A stretch of DNA of 64,000 nucleotides from Octopus vulgaris (taxonomy: Eukaryota). The stretch is taken from positions 7,378,001 through 7,442,000 of the forward strand of contig OX597832.1 in the NCBI GenBank assembly GCA_951406725.2, given 5' to 3'. Shown one piece after another: positions 6,632 to 61,306 of this stretch. Made by a program: the position numbers and the translations under genes. A model generated the notes under the pieces. That model did no database searches, had not been told where the DNA came from, and worked only from the letters and a program-made list of their open reading frames with translations. Each line of letters begins with the position of its first letter. Positions within the stretch are counted from its first letter, which is position 1.

Positions 6632-7619
6632 GTATGTATATACATATATATATATATAAATGTATATATATATATATAAATGTATATATATATAAATGTA
6701 TATATATACACACATATATATATATATATAGGGATATGTACACACGTGTATATAATATATGTGGCTATATATATATGCTTTCGTCGCGTATTATACACAT
6801 GCATAATGCATATGTATATGATATATATATGTGTATCTATGTAAATATATTATACAACATAAAATACTTGTGTGCGTTCTGTGTGTATGCATGTGTGTGT
6901 TTGTAACTGAAGGTGGTTCTGCATTTAGTTTTCAAACAGAGTTTGAAACAGATAATCCTGATGCGGTTATGCCAAGTGGTTTGACAACTACGAGTTTAAA
7001 TTAAAGCTAAATATTATTGGTTGCTAACCGTTCCAACCAAGTTTTTGTATATCAATTATTTTATTTTATAGCTCCATTATTTTATAGCTCCATTATTCTC
7101 TTTTTATTTCTTCAGTACATCTCAGGTCGATGAACACATAGCTGGTCAATGTTGGTCCAATTTCTCCTCCCGTTAAGTTCTTTTCATTTACCGTAATGTC
7201 AGACTGTCTGAACCTCACCGCATCACACTTTTTAAAACCAAATTCTGGTTTCTCATCTACCTCTTTGTCGCTTTCCCTTTTCATAATCCTAATCCTCATT
7301 CATTTCTCGCAACCCTCGCATGCTTACTCGAGGGCAGCTTCTGTGTAAACTGTTACCTCTCAACCGTAATCTTGATGATATTCTTTGAGTATTTAAAAAC
7401 GCTTTTATTTTTGGATGAGATTTGCTTCCTTTTCCTTTTATATAAACTGTCAAATTTAATCCGAACTCATTGTCGTACGCACACATGCACACACACAAAC
7501 ACAAACAGACGCACACACATGCACAAGTACGCACGCGCGCGAGCGGCGCACACATACTTCCTTCGTAGAATACAAGCTGAAACAGCCATGAAACAGAATA
7601 CAATAAAATACGATAAATC

Positions 7620-12257: not shown

Positions 12258-12945
<688 letters not shown>

Positions 12946-13125
12946 CCACAAATGATACCTTTTGATGTGGCAGTAATGTGTTGGCTGCAGTGGTCGGTGG
13001 TATGGTAAATGGGAGTGGCACTATGTATGTTAATAGTTTAACAGTATGCGTAAGTGCTATATGTGGTTGGTGATATGCAATTATGTGTTTAGTGGTGTGT
13101 TATAGTGAATGTTATAGTCTATATT

Positions 13126-13358
13126 TCTTTCTTTACTACCCACAAGGGGCTAAACACAGAGGGGACAAACAAGTACAGACAAACGAATTAAGTCGATTAA
13201 ATCGACCCCAGTGCGTAACTGGTACTTATTTAATCGACCCCGAAAGGATGAAAGGCAAAGTCGACCTCGGTGGAATTTGAACTCAGAACGTAACGGCAGA
13301 CGAAATACTGCTAAGCATTTCGCCCGGTGCGCTAACGATTCTGCCAGCTCGCCGCCTT
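13126..13358 (-). mobile_element. SINE family A, full length, Tx1-type tail, 16-bp TSD
   Basis: A box tggcagaatcgtt, B box gagttcaaattcc, central gcctttcatcctttcggggtcga domain; TSD tgttatagtctatatt at 13110-13125 and 13359-13374. Confidence 0.9.
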
Positions 13359-13451
13359 TGTTATAGTCTATATTGTAGCAGTATATGTAGTTGTGTATCA
13401 GTGGTGTTTTATAGTATGTGTTGTAATGTATGTTATTGTGTATGTTATAGT

Positions 13452-14175: not shown

Positions 14176-14334
14176 TGTGCTGGTGATGTAGCAGGAATGT
14201 GACGTAGTGTGTTTGTAATGTGCTCATTCGTTTGCACGTTCATTTCGCTAGCAGCAAGCTGTTCGGTTGATCGAGTGAACTGGGACACTCATTTTCGTAA
14301 TCAACGGAAAGCCGGGCCATATTCTATGTAAGTT

Positions 14335-14540
14335 TAGCTGAATCGTTAGCACACTGGGGAAAAATGCTAAGCGGCATTTCATCCGAATTAACGTGTCTGA
14401 GTTCAAATTCCGCTGAGGTCAACTTTGCCTTTCATCCTTTCGGAGTCGATAAAATAAGTACCAGCCGAACACTGGGGTCGATGTAATCGTCTTACCCTCT
14501 TCCGAAATTGCTGGCCTTGTGTCAAAATTTGAAATCATAG
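14335..14540 (+). mobile_element. SINE family A, tail type 2
   Basis: Same body as 13126-13358 but tail aaattgctggccttgtgtcaaaatttgaaa. Confidence 0.8.
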
Positions 14541-15009
14541 GGTATTGTTGATGCTGCGTAGAACAGTGGGGATGTTGGATTGTGTACGGTTTGTGGAGAG
14601 CGGTTTTGTGTTGGAGATAGATCTGGCGAAATAACAATGATGGGGAATTGTGTGATTATGGTGATAATGATATCTGTGTGTGTGCGTGCGTGCGTGCGTG
14701 TGTGTTTGTGCATGTGTATGTGTAAAAGTGTACGTATGGGTTATGGTAAGGAGATATGGTGGGGGTGGGTGGGGCGGGAGTTAGGGAGGGTCTGGTTGGG
14801 CATGAACTGACATTGATTAAATAAATATCGCTTAATGAAATGTCATATATCTCTTGCGATGGTTTATTCAATGGACAGAAATAGAATAGATTTGAATAGA
14901 ATGGAATGGAATAGAATGGATTAGAATGGAAGTGGCGGGAAATAAGAGGAACAATACAAAAGTAAAGGAAAATTAGAAAAAAAAAATTCCAATACCAGAA
15001 CTGCCACAA

Positions 15010-16583: not shown

Positions 16584-16802
16584 AAGGCGGCAGAGCTGGC
16601 AGAATCGTTAGGACGCCGGGAAATATGCTTAGCGGTATTTCATTCCGTCTTTTCGTTTTGAGTTCAAATCCTGCCGAGGACGACTTTACCTGTCATCCTT
16701 TCGGGGTCGATAAAATAAGTACCAGTCGTGTACTGGAGACAATGTAATCGACTTGTCCCTTCTCCCGGAATTGTTGGCCTTGTGCCAAAATTTGAACTCA
16801 AT
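16584..16802 (+). mobile_element. SINE family A, tail type 2
   Basis: aaggcggcagagctggcagaatcgttag head, B box, central domain, tail 2. Confidence 0.85.
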
Positions 16803-16941
16803 ATTTCTTCTCCCTTCCACTGTCCCCTTCAGCATTTCCTCCTCCCCCTCCCCCTCCCCTCCCCCTCTTACCCCTCCCCCTCTTACCCCCTCCTCCTCCT
16901 CCACCCGCCGCGTATATATGTATGGTGTATGTATCAGAGAT

Positions 16942-18780: not shown

Positions 18781-18954
18781 TATTTCTTTATTACCCACAG
18801 GGGGCTAAACACAGAGGGGACAAACAAGGACAGACAAACGGATTAAGTCGATTATATCGACCCCAGTGCATAACTGGTACTTATTTAATCGACCCCGAAA
18901 GGATGAAAGACAAAATCGACCTCGGCGGAATTTGAACTCAGAACGTAGCGGCAG
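18781..18954 (-). mobile_element. SINE family A, 5'-truncated, Tx1-type tail
   Basis: Body and tail match 13126-13358. Confidence 0.85.
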
Positions 18955-19320
18955 AAAAAGGTTGTCATTATAGTACTCGGAGTTTCGAGTGCCGGAGTGA
19001 AGAGCTACGATACATTCCCGTCGGCTATTAATGGCAACAGACGCTACGAAAAACCGTTAAATGTAAGGGTTTTTCGTAGTGCCTTTTGCCATTTTTCAAG
19101 ATCTTCCGGAGCCACTTGGATGATAGCTGTTATGCTCTGCCCGAGCCAATTTTGATGGGCAGAGCGTGTCACTTGTAGGATGTTAATTTTGTCCTCCCTG
19201 TTAAATAACAGGGCGGTCATCACCCCCACGGCTTCAATTTCCGGTGGTACTTCTGTCACCTTAACACGGGACGTGCGCCGCCCCGTATAGGTCGGCAGAA
19301 GCACCACTTCATTTGTTTTT
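18955..19320 (-). pseudogene. Probable Tx1/L1 ORF1 fragment
   Basis: ORF 19044-19307 VLLPTYTGRRTSRVKVTEVPPEI resembles the region before the zinc knuckle of Tx1-type ORF1; GC-rich relative to flanks. Confidence 0.45.
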
Positions 19321-19658: not shown

Positions 19659-20139
19659 CTATAGTTTTCAACCCATTTTTAAGTATGGACCTCTTTGATT
19701 ATTATTTTATTCTGGTGTCCCACACGTAGCCATTCAACATTTAAAACCTAGTTTTATAGATACTTCTTTAAAAAAATTCCTATTTTGTTTTCTACGCATT
19801 AACTTGTGTAGGTTGAGTTATGTAAAATATTTGAGAAAGAAACCAACCTGTTTCTTATTTCTATACTGCCCACAAGGGGCTGCACACAGAGGGGACAAAC
19901 AAGGACAGACAAACAGATTAAGTCGATTATAATGACCTCAGTGCGTAACTGGTACTTATTTAATCGACCCCGAAAGGATGAAAGGCAAAGTCGACCTGCA
20001 ATACAAACCAATACATACATCTACTGCAAATGTTTTTCAGGGACCCTTAAAATACTATTGTGGATCCCCCAATTTACTATTTCGTTTCAAGCACGCCCCC
20101 ACCATCAAATCTAATATGGACCCCAGTTGAGAACAACTG
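19659..20139. mobile_element. hAT (Charlie/MER5-like) MITE interrupted by a SINE A fragment
   Basis: Ends ctatagttttcaacc ... gttgagaacaactg resemble CAGTGGTTCTCAAC TIRs; degenerate 8-bp TSD acgcagag/gcgtaaag. Confidence 0.55.
19850..19998 (-). mobile_element. SINE family A 3' fragment, Tx1-type tail
   Basis: Tail reads tctgtgtgcagccccttgtgggcagtatagaaataagaaa on the minus strand. Confidence 0.85.
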
Positions 20140-21146: not shown

Positions 21147-21359
21147 TTGAAGAAATATTTTCACGAGTTTGGCAGAATCAGCAAGTAGATTACTCTTGTT
21201 TGATTTATATTAACTGTCCGACGTTGGATTTATTTAACCCCTGCTCAGTACATCTGTGGTCAAGCGAATCTGAAAGCAATAGCGTTCCAAGTGTGACTAT
21301 TCAGTCTTTTTTGTATATTAGAGAGTCTCTTGTCCAATATATCACTCTTTATTCTTTTT

Positions 21360-21855
21360 TACTCTAGGCAAAAGGCTCAACATTTTTTGGGAGGGGGCTA
21401 GTCGATTAGATCGTCCTCAGTACGCAACTGGTACTTAATTTATCGATCTCGAAAAGATGTAAGACAAAGTCGACCTCGGCGGAAATTGAAGTCAAGACGT
21501 AAAGACAGGAGAAATACCTATTTCTTTACTACCCACAAGGGGCTAAACACAGAGAGGACAAACAAGGATAGACAAACGGATTAAGTCGTTAATTTATCGA
21601 CCCCGAAAGGATGAAAGGCAAAGTCAACCTCGGCGGAATTTGAAGTCAGGACGTAAAGACAGGAGAAATACCTATTTCTTTACTACCCACAAGTGGCTAA
21701 ACACAGAAAGGACAAACAAGGATAGACAAACGGATTAAGTCGTTAATTTATCGACCCCGAAAGGATGAAAGGAAAAGTCGACCTTGGCGGAATTTGAAGT
21801 CAGGACGTAAAGACAGGAGAAATACCGCTAAACATTTCGCCTGGCGTGCTAACGT
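21360..21855 (-). mobile_element. Tandem array of SINE A units (two internally deleted Tx1-tail units plus one tail-2 unit)
   Basis: Unit of about 150 bp repeated, junction aaagaaata|ggtatttc in SINE sense. Confidence 0.85.
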
Positions 21856-22957: not shown

Positions 22958-23144
22958 AATGTATATACATACATATATACACAGACATATGTAGATATTT
23001 CAAATTGAGTTTTCAATTTAAAATTACTTTCAAATACATTTTCTTTCATAAGAAATGTGGAATGTTTTCTATTTTTTATGATGCTAGTAGAGTAACTACG
23101 AAAAATTTGGCTACTCAAGAGTTAAAAAGAGAAATCAGTAAAAT

Positions 23145-23360
23145 TGGCTCCAAATTTAGCACAAGGCTAGTAATTTTAAGGGGAGGGGGCAAGTGAATTG
23201 CATCAACCCCTGTGCTCAACTTGCAGTTATGTTATCGATCCCAAATGTAAGAAGGGTAATGTTGACCTCGTCGGAATGTGAACCCAACCGTAAAAGACGA
23301 ACGAAATGGGGTTAAGTATTTTTCCCTGCGTGCTACCTATGTTGCCCACTCGCTGCCTTC
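23145..23360 (-). mobile_element. Diverged SINE A, tail type 2
   Basis: Degenerate match to family A. Confidence 0.65.
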
Positions 23361-23451: not shown

Positions 23452-24230
23452 GAGGCAGCGAGCGGGCGGAAACGTTAGCACGCCGGGCGAAATGCTTAGC
23501 GGTATTTTGTCTGCCGTTACGTTGTGAGTTCAAATTCCGCCGCGGTCGACTTTAATTTTCATCCTTTCGGGGTCGATAAATTAAGTACCAGTTACGCACT
23601 GGGGTCGATGTAATCGACTTAATACCTATGTCTGTCCTTGTTTGTCCCTTCTATGTTTAGCCCCTTGTGGGTAATAAAGAAATGGGTATTTCGTCTGCTG
23701 TTACGTTCTGAGTTCAAATTCCGCAGAGGTCGACTTTGCCTTTCATCCTTTCGGGGTCAATAAATTAAGTACCAGTTACGCACTGGGGTCGATATAATCG
23801 ACTTAATCCGTTTGTCTGTCCTTGTTTATCCCTTCTGTGTTTAGCCCCTTCTGGGTAGTAAAGAAATAGGTATTTCGTCTGCAGTTACATTCTGAGTTCA
23901 AATTCCGCCGAGGTCGACTTTGCCTTATATCATTTCAGGGTCGATAAATTAAGTACCAGTTTTGCACTAGGGTCGATGTAATCGACTTCATCTCTTTGTC
24001 TGTCCTTGTTTGTCCCCTGTATGTTTAGCCCCTTGTGGGCAATAAAGAAATAAGAATCGTTAGCACGCCGGGCGAAATGCTTAGCGGTATTTCGCAAGTC
24101 GCTATATTCTGAGTTCAAATTCCACCGAGGTCGACTTTGCCTTTCATCCTTTCGGGGTCGATAAATTGAGTACCAGTTGCGTACTTGGATCGATATAATC
24201 GACTGGCCCTTCCCCCAAAGTTCGGCCCTA
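23452..24230 (+). mobile_element. Tandem array of four SINE A units
   Basis: Three units with Tx1-type tail followed by one tail-2 unit; later units lack all or part of the head. Confidence 0.9.
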
Positions 24231-24308
24231 ACATATACTTACACACACACACATACACACACACATACACACACATATACATACACATATGTACATACAT
24301 ACATGCAT

Positions 24309-28927: not shown

Positions 28928-29210
28928 GGTTGTAATCGACTGAATCCCTTTGTCTGTACTTGTTTGCCCCCTGTATGTTTAACCCCTTGTGGGCAATAAA
29001 GAAATATGAATCGTTAGCACGCCGGGCTAAATGCTTACAAGTATTTCGTCTGTCTTTATGTTCTGAGTTCAAATTTCGCCGTGGTTGATTTGGCCTTTCA
29101 TCCTTTCGTGGTCGATAAAAATAAGTACCAGTTGAGTATTGGGGTCAATGTAATTGACTAGCTCCTCTCCCTAATTTCAGGCATTGTGTCTTTAGTAGAA
29201 AGGATTATTA
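28928..29210 (+). mobile_element. SINE A Tx1-tail fragment joined to a tail-2 SINE A at the head
   Basis: Junction aataaagaaatat|gaatcgttagcacgccggg. Confidence 0.8.
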
Positions 29211-30946
29211 TCATAGACATACATGCATAATAGTAAAATAAATGTCCCTCTATCGATTTCTGTGATGAGTTTCCATTTGTACGTTCAGGCGAACCACTTC
29301 CTCAGTAAATTAGCACAAGAGTGGATGAGTATTCCGCAGACACGTGTATCCTTAACGTAATTCTCGGGTAGAATCTATGTAACAAAATGTGTTGCAATGC
29401 TGCTCGATCTTTGAATCTCTAGTTTGATCCATCTGGTGAGCTTCGAAACAATTTCTGATAATCCAATTTCACTTACAAGTCGTTGATCAATCGGAGTCAA
29501 TGGTAAAAAAATACTTGCCTAAGAGAAAATGCCATACGGTGAGATTGAACCCGGGACCTCGTGATTGCCAAGCAAATTTCTTAACCATTGCGCCTTGCTG
29601 AGTCCATATTTGCAAACATCCATGCATACATATGTTTGCTCTTGCCGCATATACTTCAGTGTTGCATACGAGAAATCTTTCACTCTCTCTGTTTTCTCTC
29701 CTGCCTTCCATCTGTTTATTTCTAATCTACTATTGTTGTTGTTTTGTTTTTTTTTTTATTTGAAACAGGTTTGTAAAAAATAAATAGATAAATAAATTCG
29801 TAAAAAATAAATACAAAACTTAAACTACAACAGCAAAAAACAAAAACAAAAGAAAATTTCTAAAATCTTAAATTGGAAATAGCTCTACTTAATCAACATC
29901 AACGATGTGTAAGCGAGGTGATGAACCAAATATATGCTTAAACGTTGCTGTTATTGTATTCTTTCTCTCTCTCTCTCTGAGCACATTTATATGTATGTAT
30001 GTGTGTGCATATGCGTGTATGTGTGTGTGTATGTATGTGTGTGTGTGTGTGTGTGTGTGTCTGTGTGCGTGTGTGTTGGTATATTTGTATATATTTGATA
30101 CATTGTGCCGTTCATTGTTTTATTTAATCTCCCCACCACAGACGAAAACAAAATTAAAATTTGTGAGTTAAAATATCAAATCAATGAAAGACAACTTAAC
30201 TGGGGATGAAGACAATGAGTGTGTGTGTGTGTGTATGTGTGTATGTGTGTATGTGTGTGTGTGTGTGTCTGTGTGTATGAGAGCGTGTTCGTGTTTGTGA
30301 ATTATGTAAGATGATTGAGGAGCTGTTGAAATGTTATTGAAATTTCTAAATGAATTGTTTACAAGGGGAATTGATGCTAAAGGCGGCCGAGAGTTTGATA
30401 GAGCAAACGACAGACACGCACACATACACAGACAAACACACACAAACACAGAGAGAGAAAAGAACTAGAGAGGGGAGAGAGAGAGAAAGAGAGCGGAGAG
30501 AAAGGGGAGAAAGGGGAGAGAAAGATGGAGAGATACTTTTGATAGTCGTTCCACGGAATTACAAAAATGCTCCGCAATGTCATAAACACATGGCCAAACG
30601 ACAATTGATTTTGCATTCCTCTCAGCTCCACTTCCTTGACTTCTCCCTCCTAAGGCCCTTTCTTCCAATTTTCTCCGTCTTCTCAATCATTTCTCTCCCT
30701 TTCTTTCTCTCTCACACACACAAAACAAAACAAAAAAAAAACCACAGCAAAATCCCAATTGCACCGCCAACGATTAAACAAAGAAAACGTCCATTATTAT
30801 GACGATCTATAATACGCAATTTTTACAGCACCAAAAGTGTCATTAAAAGAGTATGTTTAACAAAACCAGCGTTTGTAATGGATAGCAACGAGTTTGATAT
30901 GCGTGTATGTGTGTATGTGTGTATATGTGTCTGCATGCGTTTGTGG

Positions 30947-30971
30947 TATCTATCTATCTATCTGTTTGTGG

Positions 30972-31037
<66 letters not shown>

Positions 31038-31070
31038 CCTACCTACCTACCTACCTACCTACCTACCTAC

Positions 31071-31145
<75 letters not shown>

Positions 31146-31185
31146 CCTACCTACCTACCTACCTATCTATCTATCTATCTATCTA

Positions 31186-31244
<59 letters not shown>

Positions 31245-31269
31245 CCTACCTACCTACCTACCTACCTAC

Positions 31270-31323
<54 letters not shown>

Positions 31324-31387
31324 ATCTATCTACCTACCTACCTACCTACCTACCTACCTACCTACCTACCTATCTATTTATCTATCT
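30947..31387. repeat. (TCTA)n/(CCTA)n array, 5' flank of the Tx1 insertion
   Basis: Directly visible; continues as (TCTA)n at 33489-33576. Confidence 0.97.
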
Positions 31388-33103
31388 AACGAACCTGGCA
31401 TGGGTGGGGCGCTGATCAATTTGGATCAATCGAAAGCTTTCGATAGGGTGGACCATCGATACTTGGAGGCGGTCCTCGGAGCGGCTGGCTTCGGTCCCGT
31501 CTTCCGCGGCTGGATAGCCGCTTTGTACAGAGGCATCCGTTCGGTAATTCGCGTGAATGGACATCTATCGAGACCCTTCGACATCGCACGTTCGGTCCGT
31601 CAGGGATGCCCCCTCTCGTCGCTTCTATACGTATTGACTCTCGAGCCATTATTGCGGAAGCTGGCAACCTTGAGAGGTCTCCCGCGAGAATTGGGATGCG
31701 GGACGAGCGTGTCTGCATACGCGGACGACGTCACCGTCATAGTGTCTAGCCACGAGCACATCGAGCAGGTCGGCGAGACACTGAAAAACTACGAAGCGGT
31801 GACAGGAGCGAAAATCAACCGGGAAAAGTCAGTGGGCTTGCGACTAGGCACCTGGAGAAGCAAGCCCATGTCGTCCACCAGCGCCTCCGTCGTGGGACGC
31901 TGGACCGACGGCCCGGTTGAGTTGCTCGGGGTCTGGTTTGGTCCGGACCTCCAAGTGGAGAAGAACTGGAACGAGATAACGAGTAGGGTGGTCACTCTCG
32001 CCCGGCAATGGGCCGAGAGGAAACTGTCCCTAAAAGGTCGGGCGGAGGTGGCGAACACGTACATCGCGTCCGTCATCTATTACCGCCTGACCGTCGTACC
32101 TTGTCCCGACCCTACCATCACCAAACTACAACGCATTCTCTTTCGCTTCTTGTGGAAAGGATGCGTCCCGATGGTCAGGCGATCCATTTGCTGTCAACAC
32201 CCGTTAAAAGGAGGGCTGGGCATGCCGTGGTTGATGATGCGCAGACACGCGCTGAGACTGCGACATCTCTGGCTCTATGTAGACGACGGTGAACAGGTGT
32301 GGTCGCCGTTTGTGAGGCACGCTTTCCCGCAGCTCGTCTCCATGACCGAACTGCAGTCGTGGATCAAAAAGAGGCCGAGGAAGGGCGAATGGCACCGCGA
32401 GTGTCGCGTTGCTCTCAAGCAACTCTGCCGTCCTGGGTCGACCTTTAGTGACTTCAACACAACCAAAGCATTCTATAGGGGTTTAGTGGAGGGGAGGTAC
32501 GACGACGAGCTCGGGGCGAACCTGGACGTCGACGAGGAGTACCTGACCCGCCTGTTCAGGACGACTTTCGGGCCAGGGCCCATGTACAACTTCCAGAGAT
32601 CCCTGGCCTGGCAGTGCTACCGAGAAGCGCTACCCGTTCGGGATAAGCTCTACAGACACGGCTCGAGAAACACGGGGCCGACCTGCCCGAGATGCGGTCA
32701 GAGCGACGAAACCGTTCTGCATGCACTCGTGCAGTGTCCAACAATTTCCGACCTGTGGGCTTATGTCGAACAACTGCTGCCACGTGTGGGACGAGTCGGT
32801 TTATCAGCTGAGTCTATCGTCAATATTGTCACGCCTCCTTCCTTCAAACGGGAAGGAAGAGCTATTTTCATCATCCTTGTGGCTATGGCGAAAGAATGTA
32901 TCTGGTGGACGCGTCTGAAAGGATTGGAGACAAACACTTTCCTCTCTGGTCAATCTCTCATCAACTTCTTCAAGTACCACTTGAAAAGGAAAGTGAGAGT
33001 AGAGAGGCAAGTTTTGTCTAGCGAATGTTTTAAAAAAAGATGGGTGAATGTAGCAAGAATGGCACGTATGAATGACGAAGCCACCTTGAGCATGGTCCTA
33101 TGA
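31388..33103 (+). CDS. Partial ORF2 (reverse transcriptase plus C-terminal zinc-binding domain) of a Tx1-like element; lacks the endonuclease and a native start
   Basis: [58 protein letters not shown]; no stops or frameshifts. Confidence 0.9.
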
Positions 33104-33488
33104 ACCCAGAAATTGAAATCAGAGAGTTGTTTATTCGCAAAAAAAAAAAAAAAAAAAAAAAGAAATATAACATGTGATTTCATTGACCGAGGTTACCGTG
33201 GTCTTTTCCGTAGGCTTTTCTTTGCACGGGTAAACCTCACCTGTCCTCCCCTTTACACTTCATATTGACATTTCTGTGATAACGATCCCTATTGATCAAT
33301 TTTTTTTTCCTCTCCCCTTTTTTTTAACCCCCCATTTTTTTGTCCTCTTTCTCTCCTTTTACGATCCCTTTTGATCGAAGCTCCCCCTTCCTTTTTTTTT
33401 TTTTTTTTTTTTTAAACCTTCAAAAGAAAAGCTCTACCTTGTAATTTGTTCTATCTGTGTGCAGCCCTGTGTGGCTAATAAAGAAACA
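31388..33488 (+). mobile_element. 5'-truncated Tx1-clade (L1 group) non-LTR retrotransposon
   Basis: RT and zf-RVT ORF, about 385 bp 3' UTR with A/T tracts ending gctaataaagaaa, flanked on both sides by (TCTA)n. Confidence 0.92.
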
Positions 33489-33576
<88 letters not shown>

Positions 33577-34317: not shown

Positions 34318-34592
34318 GACTGGGGACGAATTAATTTCAGCTGGCGTGTTGGGAATTAAGCCAAACGGCAGAGGGAAGAATATCGATGTGGCAGTGACCG
34401 TGGTCAAATGCAAAAAGGGCTAGCAGTCGGCCAACGGTCACGTGAGAAGAGAAGTACACATTTCACTAAATTTTGTACGACTTCTTCAACACTCTCTCTC
34501 ACAATTCTTTGCTTTTCTTACTTTGCACTTCACTATGTCCCTGTCTCTCATTTTTTTTCGCCACTCCTTGATTCTTCCGTCTATCTACTGCT

Positions 34593-34633
<41 letters not shown>

Positions 34634-34804
34634 TCCCACTCCTTTATTCCTTCTTCTTTTTCTCTCTCTTCTCTTCTCACGTGACCGTTGGCCGACTGCT
34701 AGCCCTTTTTGCGTTTGACCACAGTCACTGCCACATCGATATTCTTCCCTCTGCCGTAAAGCTTAATTCCCAATAAGCCAGCTATATTAAATTCGTCCCC
34801 AGTC
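34318..34804. repeat. Inverted repeat pair of about 137 bp (34318-34454 / 34668-34804), probably from a Penelope-like element
   Basis: Arms are reverse complements with scattered mismatches. Confidence 0.85.
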
Positions 34805-39325: not shown

Positions 39326-39520
39326 GCGGTGAGCTGGTTGAATCGTTAGCACAGTAGGTCCTTACGTTCTTAGTTCAAATTCCGCCGAGGTCGACTTTGC
39401 TTTTCATTCTTTCGGTATTGATAAAAGAAGTACCAGTTGATCACTAGGGTCGTTGTAATCGAATTATTTCCTCTCCTGAAGTTACTGCTTGTGTGCCAAA
39501 ATTTGGAAACCATTATTATC
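39326..39520 (+). mobile_element. SINE family A (internally deleted), tail 2, followed by (TAC)n
   Basis: Head, B box, central domain, tail 2; (TAC)n at 39522-39593. Confidence 0.75.
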
Positions 39521-59788: not shown

Positions 59789-60050
59789 AACGCATACATA
59801 CACATATATATATATAGATAGATATGTGTGTGTCTTTGTGTGTTTGTCTCCCACCACCGCTTGGCAAACGGTGTTGGTGTGCTTACGTTCCCGTAATCTA
59901 GTAGTTCGGCAAAGGAGATCGATAAAATAAGTACCAGGATTTAAAAAGAATATAATTACTGTGGTCAATTCATTCGACTAAAAATTCTAAATGCCATGCC
60001 CCGGCATGGCCGCAACCTAATGGCTGAAATAAGTAAAAGATATAAAATAG
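59332..60050 (+). mobile_element. Rearranged SINE B (head 59332-59475, short inverted piece about 59508-59527, tail 59820-60050)
   Basis: Head and tail match family B; gtctaccaaatccactca is the inverse of tgagtgaatttggtag. Confidence 0.65.
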
Positions 60051-60469
60051 AACGTAAAACAAAATTCTTTGCAGTACTTATGGTCCTTTACATTGTGTGT
60101 TCAAATCCCACCAAGGTAGACTTGGCTGCTTTCCATTCCGCAATCAATAAAATAAAATACCGGACGCCGGGCGAAATGCTTAGCAATATTTCGTCTGCCG
60201 TTACGTTCTGAGTTCAAATCAATGTATTTGATTTAATCCCTTTGTCTGTCCTTGTTTGTCCCCTTGTGGGCAATAAAGAAATAAAATTAAAATACCGGTG
60301 AAAATACTGGTGACGTCATTTTCGTTGATTATCCTTTCTTTTTGAGTTTTGTGGCTTTGTATCAATGTTAGAAACGAACATTGCACTATTGATTACTTAA
60401 CGTTCTGAGTTCAAATCCTGTCGAGGCCACCATCATGTTTTCTCGTTCTGGGTCGATAAAATATTTTCT

Positions 60470-61306
60470 AATTTTGGCACAAAGCTTGCTGCTTAAGTGG
60501 GTGGAGTTTAGACGAATAGTTTTATCCCAATACTGAATGTTACTTCATTTTGTCGACACTCGGAAGATGAAGAGTAAAGTTGATCTTGGTGGAATTTGAA
60601 ATAAGAACATCGAGGACTGGAAGAACTACTAGTTTCAAACATTGGCATGGGGAGATCGATTTCGAGGGAACGCTAAGTCGATTACATTGACCTCAGTGCT
60701 CAACTGATACTTATTTTATCGACTCTGAAAGGATGAAAGGCAAAGTCGATTCCGGCGGCGTTTGAACTCAGAACGTAAAGTCGGAAGAAAATGCTGCTGT
60801 GCACGCTTCGCATTATTGTCCGGCGTGCTAACGATTCTGCCATCTTGCCACCTTTAAGACTAGAAGTAATACTGATTTTTAAATCTTGGCACAAGGCCAG
60901 CAATTTCTGGGGAGGAGATTAATCGATTACATCGACCCCAGTGTTCAACTGGTACTTATTTTATCTACTCAGAGAGGATGGAAGTCAAAATCAACCTCGG
61001 TCGAATTTGAACTCAGAACGTAAAGACACAAAATGCAGTTAACCATTTTTCCTTGTGTGCTAAATATTATGCTAGCTCGCCGCCTTAAAGACTGGAAGAA
61101 ATATTGGCTTCAAATTTTTGCACAAAGCAGCAATTCTGGAGAAGGATAATTCGATTACATTGAACCCAATCCTCAATTTTATCGACCCTCAGAGGATGAA
61201 AGGCAAAGTCGACTTTGGAGGTGTTTGAACTGAGAGAGTAAAGACGGACGAAATGCCGCTAGGCATTTTGCCCGTCGTGCTGACGATTCTGCCAGCTCAC
61301 CGCCTT
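60470..61306 (-). mobile_element. Array of four diverged SINE A tail-2 copies
   Basis: Units at about 60470-60625, 60635-60855, 60880-61087 and 61108-61306, separated by an aagact(g/a)gaag.aata motif. Confidence 0.8.

What the first reader, a model, noticed from the sequence alone, without database searches (positions are those of the whole stretch)
33435..33488. SINE family A carries the 3' end of the Tx1 element: a SINE/Tx1 partner pair
Seen: the Tx1 ends ...ccttgtaatttgttctatctgtgtgcagccctgtgtggctaataaagaaa. SINE A tail 1 ends ...ccttgtttgtcccctctgtgt(gc/tt)agccccttgtggg(c/t)aataaagaaa, and the 19850-19998 copy shares tctgtgtgcagccc exactly. Known: SINEs borrow the 3' end of their partner LINE for recognition in trans, and documented partners are mostly CR1/L2/RTE, while L1-group partners usually share only poly(A). 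Inference: a SINE mobilised by a Tx1-clade element through a shared structured 3' end, which arose when SINE A swapped tail 2 for a Tx1 tail.
Basis: partly seen in the sequence, partly recalled or inferred. Interest (0 to 1): 0.8.

Follow-up and report, generated by a model that had tools for sequence, protein, structure and literature searches.

The report
Octopus SINE shares Tx1 retrotransposon's tail
In DNA that is likely from an octopus, the last 42 letters of a young Tx1-type retrotransposon copy match the tail of a short repeat (SINE) subfamily far beyond chance, so these SINEs likely took that end from a Tx1-type element and are likely copied by its enzyme, but the case rests on one Tx1 copy.

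Summary
Observation confirmed. A 5'-truncated Tx1-group LINE (31388-33488, open 571-aa ORF2 piece, inside a (TATC)n tract) ends in 42 nt that match the tail-1 majority of SINE A at 33/42. Without the AATAAAGAAA end it is still 24/32, the best non-SINE score among 127,938 window 32-mers. Both end at the same point, with no poly(A). Tail-1 copies are younger than tail-2 copies, and two carry long target duplications, which fits a tail swap onto an L1/Tx1-group partner. Not shown: that the motif is family-wide in Tx1 (the read tool skipped that stretch), that it is structured (4-bp hairpin, z about -0.5, no covariation), or that this family is the partner. It differs from all 9 complete SINE tails at 5 sites, the first 20 nt of tail 1 do not match, and 0 of 7 SINE loci sit in (TATC)n. 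A sister Tx1 family is the likelier donor. Unexpectedly, 4 of 7 tail-1 loci sit in older SINE A copies. Shared SINE/LINE tails are textbook; Tx1-mobilised SINEs (SINEU) and L1-tailed plant SINEs are known; I found no printed Tx1-derived tail. New variant, moderate interest.

The parts
31388..33103 (+). 5'-truncated ORF2 of a Tx1-group LINE, 571 aa without a stop, RT and zinc finger
   Evidence: no other LINE ORF2 piece found in the window with six ORF2 queries
33104..33444 (+). Tx1 3' UTR, pyrimidine-rich with an A run and a T run; family-wide up to about 33382
   Evidence: covered at 33173-33382 in 4 of 4 runs, 33383 onward skipped by the tool
33445..33488 (+). terminal segment shared with SINE A tail 1 (33/42 over 33445-33486); predicted 4-bp hairpin 33463-33476, AATAAA 33477-33482, no poly(A)
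30954..31386 (.). (TATC/TACC)n tract 5' of the Tx1 copy
33489..33576 (.). (TATC)n tract 3' of the Tx1 copy; the same tract on both sides is the likely target
13128..13358 (-). full-length SINE A with tail 1 (about 230 nt: A/B-box-like head, core, 61-nt tail), flanked by an exact 16-nt duplication (13359-13374 and 13110-13125)
18783..18955 (-). 5'-truncated tail-1 SINE, followed by (ATT)n, no duplication found
19858..19997 (-). 5'-truncated tail-1 SINE with the GC variant shared with the Tx1 end
21350..21854 (-). array: two tail-1 units running into head position 48 of an older tail-2 copy; all three share private head substitutions
23454..24235 (+). array: three tail-1 units (joins at head positions 48, 48, 15) followed by a unit with a tail-2-like end
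28933..29215 (+). short tail-1 piece running into head position 16 of an older tail-2 copy
60165..60281 (+). internally deleted tail-1 SINE inside an old SINE A core, flanked by a duplication of 11 exact nt (about 18 with one extra base)
16586..16805 (+). example of the older tail-2 SINE A (others at 14325-14545, 23140-23357, 39326-39520, 60625-61304); different stem, same CUUGU loop

Best explanation
The last 42 nt of this Tx1-group copy and of SINE A tail 1 match in register, likely because a SINE A ancestor replaced its older tail with the 3' end of an octopod Tx1-group LINE (likely a sister family, not this one), whose reverse transcriptase likely recognises that end and copies the SINE in trans. 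Shown: terminal homology, same end point without poly(A), Tx1-group protein, younger tail-1 subfamily, long target duplications at 2 of 7 loci. Inferred: template switch just after the core (SINE position about 168), Pol III transcription from the head, binding of ORF2p to the terminal segment (perhaps the small hairpin before AATAAA), target-primed reverse transcription from the AAAGAAA(C/T)A end.
For: Significance holds without the poly(A)-signal end (24/32; 0 of 20000 anchored shuffles; best non-SINE 32-mer of 127,938). The match lies at the extreme 3' end of the only LINE ORF2 found in the window and of the SINE. Three tail-2 copies and a second SINE family score 12-13 against the Tx1 end, versus 39 for tail 1. 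The Tx1 copy is young (open frame; differs from the majority letter at 5 listed places in about 440 covered bases in run X1), yet its end differs from all 9 complete tail-1 copies at 5 sites while those copies are 54-60/62 to their majority: not a piece of the tail-1 subfamily seen here. AATAAA is intact in the LINE and in only 4 of 9 SINE copies, as expected if it came from a Pol II LINE (inference). Head+core identity to own majority: tail-1 units 90-98% (one 16-nt piece left out), tail-2 copies 75-90%. Duplications of 16 nt and about 18 nt fit L1-clade lengths of 7-18 bp better than RTE, mostly 13 or less (PMC6007223 passages). The shared length and identity lie in the range accepted for bivalve SINE/LINE pairs, 35-61 bp at 72-95% (PMC11481361 passages). 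O. vulgaris has 80 L1-Tx1 families, 13 recently active (PMC13282606).
Against: One Tx1 copy only; the family-level test failed because the tool skipped 33380-33500. Only 42 of 61 tail nt match. 0 of 7 tail-1 loci are followed by (TATC)n, the tract this Tx1 sits in; shared targets were the main argument for SINEU/Tx1-Mar. 5 of 7 tail-1 loci show no duplication. The hairpin is weak: z -0.5 for Tx1, -0.5, -0.8 and -2.0 for three SINE copies; in the sequence alignment there is no two-sided change and covariation is below all 500 shuffles; the Tx1 and SINE stems are offset by one base. Tail 2 has the same CUUGU loop, so both tails may serve one other partner. The tree is a quick one with no L1 outgroup.
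Confidence: 0.58

Rival explanations
1. The homology is real but private to this copy: the Tx1 family ends earlier and 33445-33488 is a piece of an older tail-1-like SINE, joined by template switch or lying next to the insertion.
For: Family coverage is shown only to about 33382; SINE A is about 7% of the window; an A-rich stretch (33418-33431) just upstream could be an end.
Against: The segment is 21% from the tail-1 majority while the Tx1 copy is about 1% from its family majority; no SINE core adjoins it; it ends exactly at the (TATC)n tract that also flanks the 5' end; no tail-1 copy in the window is under 54/62 to the majority.
Confidence: 0.14
2. The motif is family-wide in Tx1, but SINE A is mobilised by another LINE: tail 1 and tail 2 share a hairpin read by one non-Tx1 partner, and the Tx1 took its end from that LINE or from the SINE.
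For: Tail 1 and tail 2 both form a 4-bp stem around CUUGU, while the Tx1 loop is CUGUGU; one tail-1 copy is followed by (ATT)n like tail-2 copies; no shared target with this Tx1; CR1, RTE and Dong-R4 are also active in O. vulgaris.
Against: Tail 1 and tail 2 share only CCTTGTG, against 33/42 for Tx1; template switching adds new 5' parts to an existing 3' end, so LINE-to-SINE is the usual direction (general knowledge); long duplications at two loci.
Confidence: 0.15
3. This very Tx1 family is the partner; the 21% difference is drift since capture and the target differences are small-sample noise.
For: One SINE copy shares 14 nt exactly, including the GC variant; both the LINE copy and tail-1 copies are young.
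Against: 5 differences fixed against 9 copies; first 20 nt of tail 1 unmatched; 0 of 7 loci in (TATC)n, although such tracts are only 1.5% of the window, so targeting should be visible.
Confidence: 0.09
4. Chance or convergence: a TG-rich stretch before a poly(A) signal.
For: Without the last 10-11 nt, 54 of 5000 whole-UTR shuffles reach the score; a TG-rich stretch at 6869 reaches 21/32; the pair was picked after it was seen.
Against: The 24/32 match is in exact register with the terminal motif; the other 220 A[AG]TAAA sites reach 15/32 at most.
Confidence: 0.04

Closest known systems
SINE/LINE pairs with a shared 3' tail (stringent type: UnaSINE/UnaL2, HE1/HER1, bivalve V/Core/Meta SINEs with CR1, CR1-Zenon, L2, Nimb; PMC3747384 Table 1, PMC11481361)
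   Same: tRNA-like head, core, exchangeable tail of 40-60 nt that matches a LINE's 3' end at 72-95%; tail swaps within one SINE superfamily are common
   Different: the matching LINE is Tx1-group, a clade absent from the 58-pair table and from the four clades named for bivalves
SINEU / Tx1-Mar of crocodilians (Kojima 2015, PMC4494074)
   Same: SINE proposed to be mobilised by Tx1-clade LINEs; tandem insertions into a repeat target
   Different: argued from shared target, age and shared 5' heads (section 16), not from a shared 3' tail; here the tail is shared and the target is not shared with the copy at hand
L1-clade pairs ZmSINE2/ZmSINE3 with LINE1-1_ZM and SINEX-3_CR with L1-1_CR (Ohshima 2012, 2013)
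   Same: an L1-group LINE sharing about 50-80 nt of 3' end with a SINE, read as stringent recognition
   Different: plants and algae, hairpin backed by compensatory changes; here an animal Tx1 lineage, hairpin not backed
Microsatellite-targeting Tx1 families Kibi (TC)n, Koshi (TTC)n, crocodilian (TTCC)n/(TTTC)n families
   Same: Tx1-group copy sitting inside a microsatellite
   Different: (TATC)n here, one copy only, so specificity is untested
Octopus SINEs OK, OR1, OR2 (Ohshima and Okada 1994; seen only as cited)
   Same: tRNA-derived octopus SINEs; SINE A may be one of them or a Repbase/Dfam family

Membership tests
Tx1 clade LINE | L1-group ORF2 with RT and C-terminal zinc finger, RT closest to Tx1 elements | tested here: met
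   RVT_1 and zf-RVT; TX1- and YTX2-named proteins 187 and 182 bits against 76 for human L1 ORF2p and 40-51 for R2; sister to the TX1/YTX2-named clade, SH-aLRT 98, quick tree of 43 rows without L1 outgroup
Tx1 clade LINE | APE endonuclease and ORF1 | not testable with these tools
   copy is 5'-truncated at about ORF2 residue 545; 40-45% relatives carry PF03372
Tx1 clade LINE | target-sequence preference | tested here: inconclusive
   one copy, (TATC)n on both sides; such tracts are 1.5% of the window
tRNA-derived SINE | [quoted passage not shown] | tested here: inconclusive
   A-box-like TGGCAGAATCG and B-box-like GAGTTCAAATTCC read by eye against recalled consensus; ARAGORN 0 genes; no tRNA among the 150 Rfam rows shown of 213
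tRNA-derived SINE | short, non-coding, dispersed, 5'-truncated copies, target duplications | tested here: met
   about 230 nt, over 20 pieces in the window, no T4 run in the full copy, duplications at 2 of 7 tail-1 loci
Stringent SINE/LINE pair | significant homology of the SINE tail to the LINE's 3' terminus | tested here: met
   for one LINE copy
Stringent SINE/LINE pair | motif present in the LINE family consensus | tested here: inconclusive
   skipped the stretch; no other copy found
Stringent SINE/LINE pair | conserved stem-loop with compensatory changes | tested here: not met
   no two-sided change, covariation below all shuffles, z -0.5 to -2.0; ten short, closely related rows give little power
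Stringent SINE/LINE pair | shared insertion signature | tested here: inconclusive
   SINE duplications 16 and about 18 nt; the Tx1 duplication cannot be read inside a microsatellite; targets differ, 0 of 7 in (TATC)n
Stringent SINE/LINE pair | trans-mobilisation that depends on the tail | not testable with these tools
   needs a retrotransposition assay
CORE / V / Deu / Meta / Ceph SINE superfamilies | central domain matching the superfamily consensus | not testable with these tools
   core motifs not found in the readable supplements of three papers; one file of each of two papers was not searched and figures are not held

The most novel reading that the evidence does not exclude
An octopus SINE swapped onto the 3' end of a sequence-specific Tx1 lineage that uses stringent tail recognition without poly(A), and so gained a preference for inserting into older copies of itself, building the tandem SINE arrays seen here. 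It would be the first animal L1-group LINE with a tail-sharing SINE, and a self-targeting SINE.
Probability: 0.25. Interest if true: 0.7.

Novelty: new variant of a known kind. Interest (0 to 1): 0.47.

Why it matters
Ohshima proposed that L1-clade LINEs began with stringent 3'-end recognition and relaxed it independently in mammals and plants; the only tail-sharing cases he lists are in maize, sorghum and Chlamydomonas. A Tx1-derived tail in an animal SINE would extend stringent recognition to the animal L1/Tx1 side and supply a 42-nt cis element that can be tested directly. It would also name a partner for one branch of the SINE expansion that makes up 11.6% of the O. vulgaris genome. The mechanism itself is textbook; what changes is which clade does it.

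Tried and rejected
No whole genome is held. Laying contigs of 4 runs on 32900-33500 gave no cover of 33131-33172 and 33383-33500 because the tool skipped these as repeats: no evidence either way. No RNA holder listed on record. Related-locus scans: metagenome contigs gave 1 distant locus, 30% identity, whose end scores 17 against the Tx1 end; genome and viral contigs none. Motif scans: 0 in viral contigs and genome contigs. blastn in plasmids and phages: none. Rfam: only microsatellite-driven matches below gathering score in the rows shown. Pfam on 21 other ORFs: no LINE domain. Earlier findings of this scan: nothing by sequence or place; one note on another genome's Tx1/L1 tail does not bear on this. 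Rejected: extending the match to CCTTG upstream as significant (gap cost cancels it); calling the end 'structured'; reading contig depth as copy number.

Full report
What is there. The window is likely octopod DNA: the LINE protein is 63% identical to an Argonauta hians protein. No whole genome is held. At 31388-33103 lies an open 571-aa frame with RT and zinc-finger domains, the 3' half of an ORF2 cut at about residue 545. Proteins named TX1 and YTX2 score 187 and 182 bits, human L1 ORF2p 76 and R2 proteins 40-51. In a quick tree of 43 rows the protein groups with the Argonauta and a cuttlefish protein, and that clade is sister to the TX1/YTX2-named clade (SH-aLRT 98; no L1 outgroup; the careful search did not finish). 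The 3' UTR runs to 33488. (TATC)n tracts flank the copy on both sides and there is no poly(A).

SINE A. A full copy (13128-13358, minus strand) is about 230 nt: a head with A- and B-box-like motifs (read by eye), a core, and a 61-nt tail. Copies agree to about position 168 and then carry tail 1 or tail 2. There are ten tail-1 ends at seven loci, nine of them complete. Over head and core, tail-1 units are 90-98% identical to their own majority (a 16-nt piece left out) and tail-2 copies 75-90% to theirs, so tail 1 looks like the younger branch; the majorities come from the same few copies, and one tail-2 unit is closer to the tail-1 majority.

The match. 33445-33486 matches the tail-1 majority at 33/42 without gaps. 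No shuffle of the UTR reached the score (0 of 5000). With the AATAAAGAAA end removed, 54 of 5000 whole-UTR shuffles and 4 of 5000 last-59-nt shuffles did. In fixed register the remaining 24/32 was reached by 0 of 20000 shuffles. Of 127,938 32-mers on both strands only the nine complete tail-1 copies score higher; next come 21 (the deleted tail-1 copy and a TG-rich stretch). Of 230 A[AG]TAAA sites, the 220 that are neither tail 1 nor the Tx1 end reach 15 at most. Three tail-2 copies and the end of a second SINE family score 12-13 against 39.

Is it the Tx1 family's own end? This was the decisive test and it failed technically. Contigs of 4 of the 24 listed runs (three organism codes) cover the ORF end and the UTR to about 33382, but the tool skipped 33380-33500 as repeat. 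Scans of metagenome, genome, viral, plasmid and phage collections found no second copy. Indirect evidence favours a native end. The copy is young: it differs from the majority letter at 5 listed places in about 440 covered bases of run X1. Its end differs from all nine SINE tails at five sites, whereas those tails are 54-60/62 to their majority. No SINE core adjoins it. AATAAA is intact in the LINE and in 4 of 9 SINE copies.

Is this family the partner? Probably a sister family. The first 20 nt of tail 1 match 5/20, the matched part is 21% apart, and none of seven tail-1 loci is followed by (TATC)n. O. vulgaris has 80 L1-Tx1 families, 13 recently active (PMC13282606; part 1 of 3 of the text, and its supplement). 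Two of seven tail-1 loci have target duplications: an exact 16-mer found only at the two flanks, and 11 exact nt extending to about 18 with one extra base; both begin with AATA, which also ends the SINE. Six older tail-2 loci show 6 nt or less, which age alone can explain. PMC6007223 (passages) gives 7-18 bp for L1-clade and mostly 13 or less for the RTE elements it studied, so the lengths lean to L1/Tx1, weakly.

Structure. Both ends can form a 4-bp hairpin just before A(A/G)TAAA, with loop CUGUGU in Tx1 and CUUGU in the SINE, offset by one base. Folding energy is unremarkable (z -0.5 for Tx1; -0.5, -0.8, -2.0 for three SINE copies) and pair counts show no two-sided change. Tail 2 has the same CUUGU loop on a different stem, which keeps open the rival that both tails serve one other LINE. 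'Structured' remains a prediction.

An unexpected pattern. Six of ten tail-1 ends run straight into a SINE A head at position 48 (four) or 15-16 (two), and a seventh sits in an old core. By locus, 4 of 7 lie in older SINE A, which is 4.2% of the remaining window (binomial 1e-4; 0.003 at 10%; post hoc). In the 21350-21854 array all three units share four private head substitutions, while the older unit's core differs; this fits insertion into a host copy with duplication of at least 28 nt of its head, or later local duplication. Preference for a repeat target and tandem insertion are Tx1 traits (PMC4494074), but homology-driven events or multimeric master copies could give the same picture.

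Mechanism, most likely. A SINE A transcript and a Tx1-group transcript were joined by template switch just after the core (inferred). The new subfamily is transcribed by Pol III (inferred; the full copy has no T4 run), its end is bound by Tx1 ORF2p (inferred), and reverse transcription starts at a fixed end without poly(A), helped by short pairing with the target (inferred from the AATA overlap at two loci). Confidence 0.58 for a sister-family donor, plus 0.09 for this very family.

What is known. Shared tails and tail swaps are the standard SINE model (PMC3747384 passages and tables part 1; PMC4824008 passages; PMC11481361 passages; PMC4758252 passages). The 58-pair table has no Tx1 partner and three L1-clade pairs, in maize and Chlamydomonas. 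SINEU is assigned to Tx1-Mar by target, age and shared 5' heads (section 16 read). PMC5786205 has no mention of Tx1 or octopus (term search); PMC3531059, PMC8967140 and PMC9115989 (passages) give no such pair. Nine searches found no SINE with a Tx1-derived tail. The library lacks subscription papers, Repbase and Dfam; Ohshima and Okada 1994 on octopus OK, OR1 and OR2 was seen only as a citation, so SINE A may already be named.

Verdict. A real terminal homology and a plausible Tx1-tailed SINE: a new variant of a known kind, resting on one LINE copy. Interest 0.47.

Noticed in passing
window 21350-21854, 23454-24235, 28933-29215, 60165-60281: Tail-1 SINE copies sit in or run into older SINE A copies at 4 of 7 loci, with repeated joins at head positions 48 and 15-16, forming tandem arrays.
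   Followed up: partly
window 16779, 14516, 60895, 23165: Tail 2 has a 4-bp hairpin with the same CUUGU loop as tail 1 but another stem, followed by A-rich sequence and (ATT)n; its partner LINE is not in the window.
   Followed up: partly
window 30954-33576: The Tx1 copy is inserted in a (TATC)n tract, a possible microsatellite target not among those named in PMC4494074 passages; one copy only.
   Followed up: no
window 34318-34454 and 34668-34804: 137-nt inverted repeats, 92% complementary, 213 nt apart around a (CT)n stretch: likely a MITE-like element.
   Followed up: no
window 12830-12990 (minus) and 59840-60050: At least two further SINE-like families; one ends next to a (GATA)n tract, one shares part of the SINE A core motif.
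   Followed up: no
window 60400-61304: Cluster of several older tail-2 SINE A copies head to tail and inverted.
   Followed up: no
proteins P0122-P0128, P0245, P0248: Relatives at 63-74% identity occur in metagenome and bacterial-bin records, one labelled Herbaspirillum: likely animal host DNA in those records.
   Followed up: no
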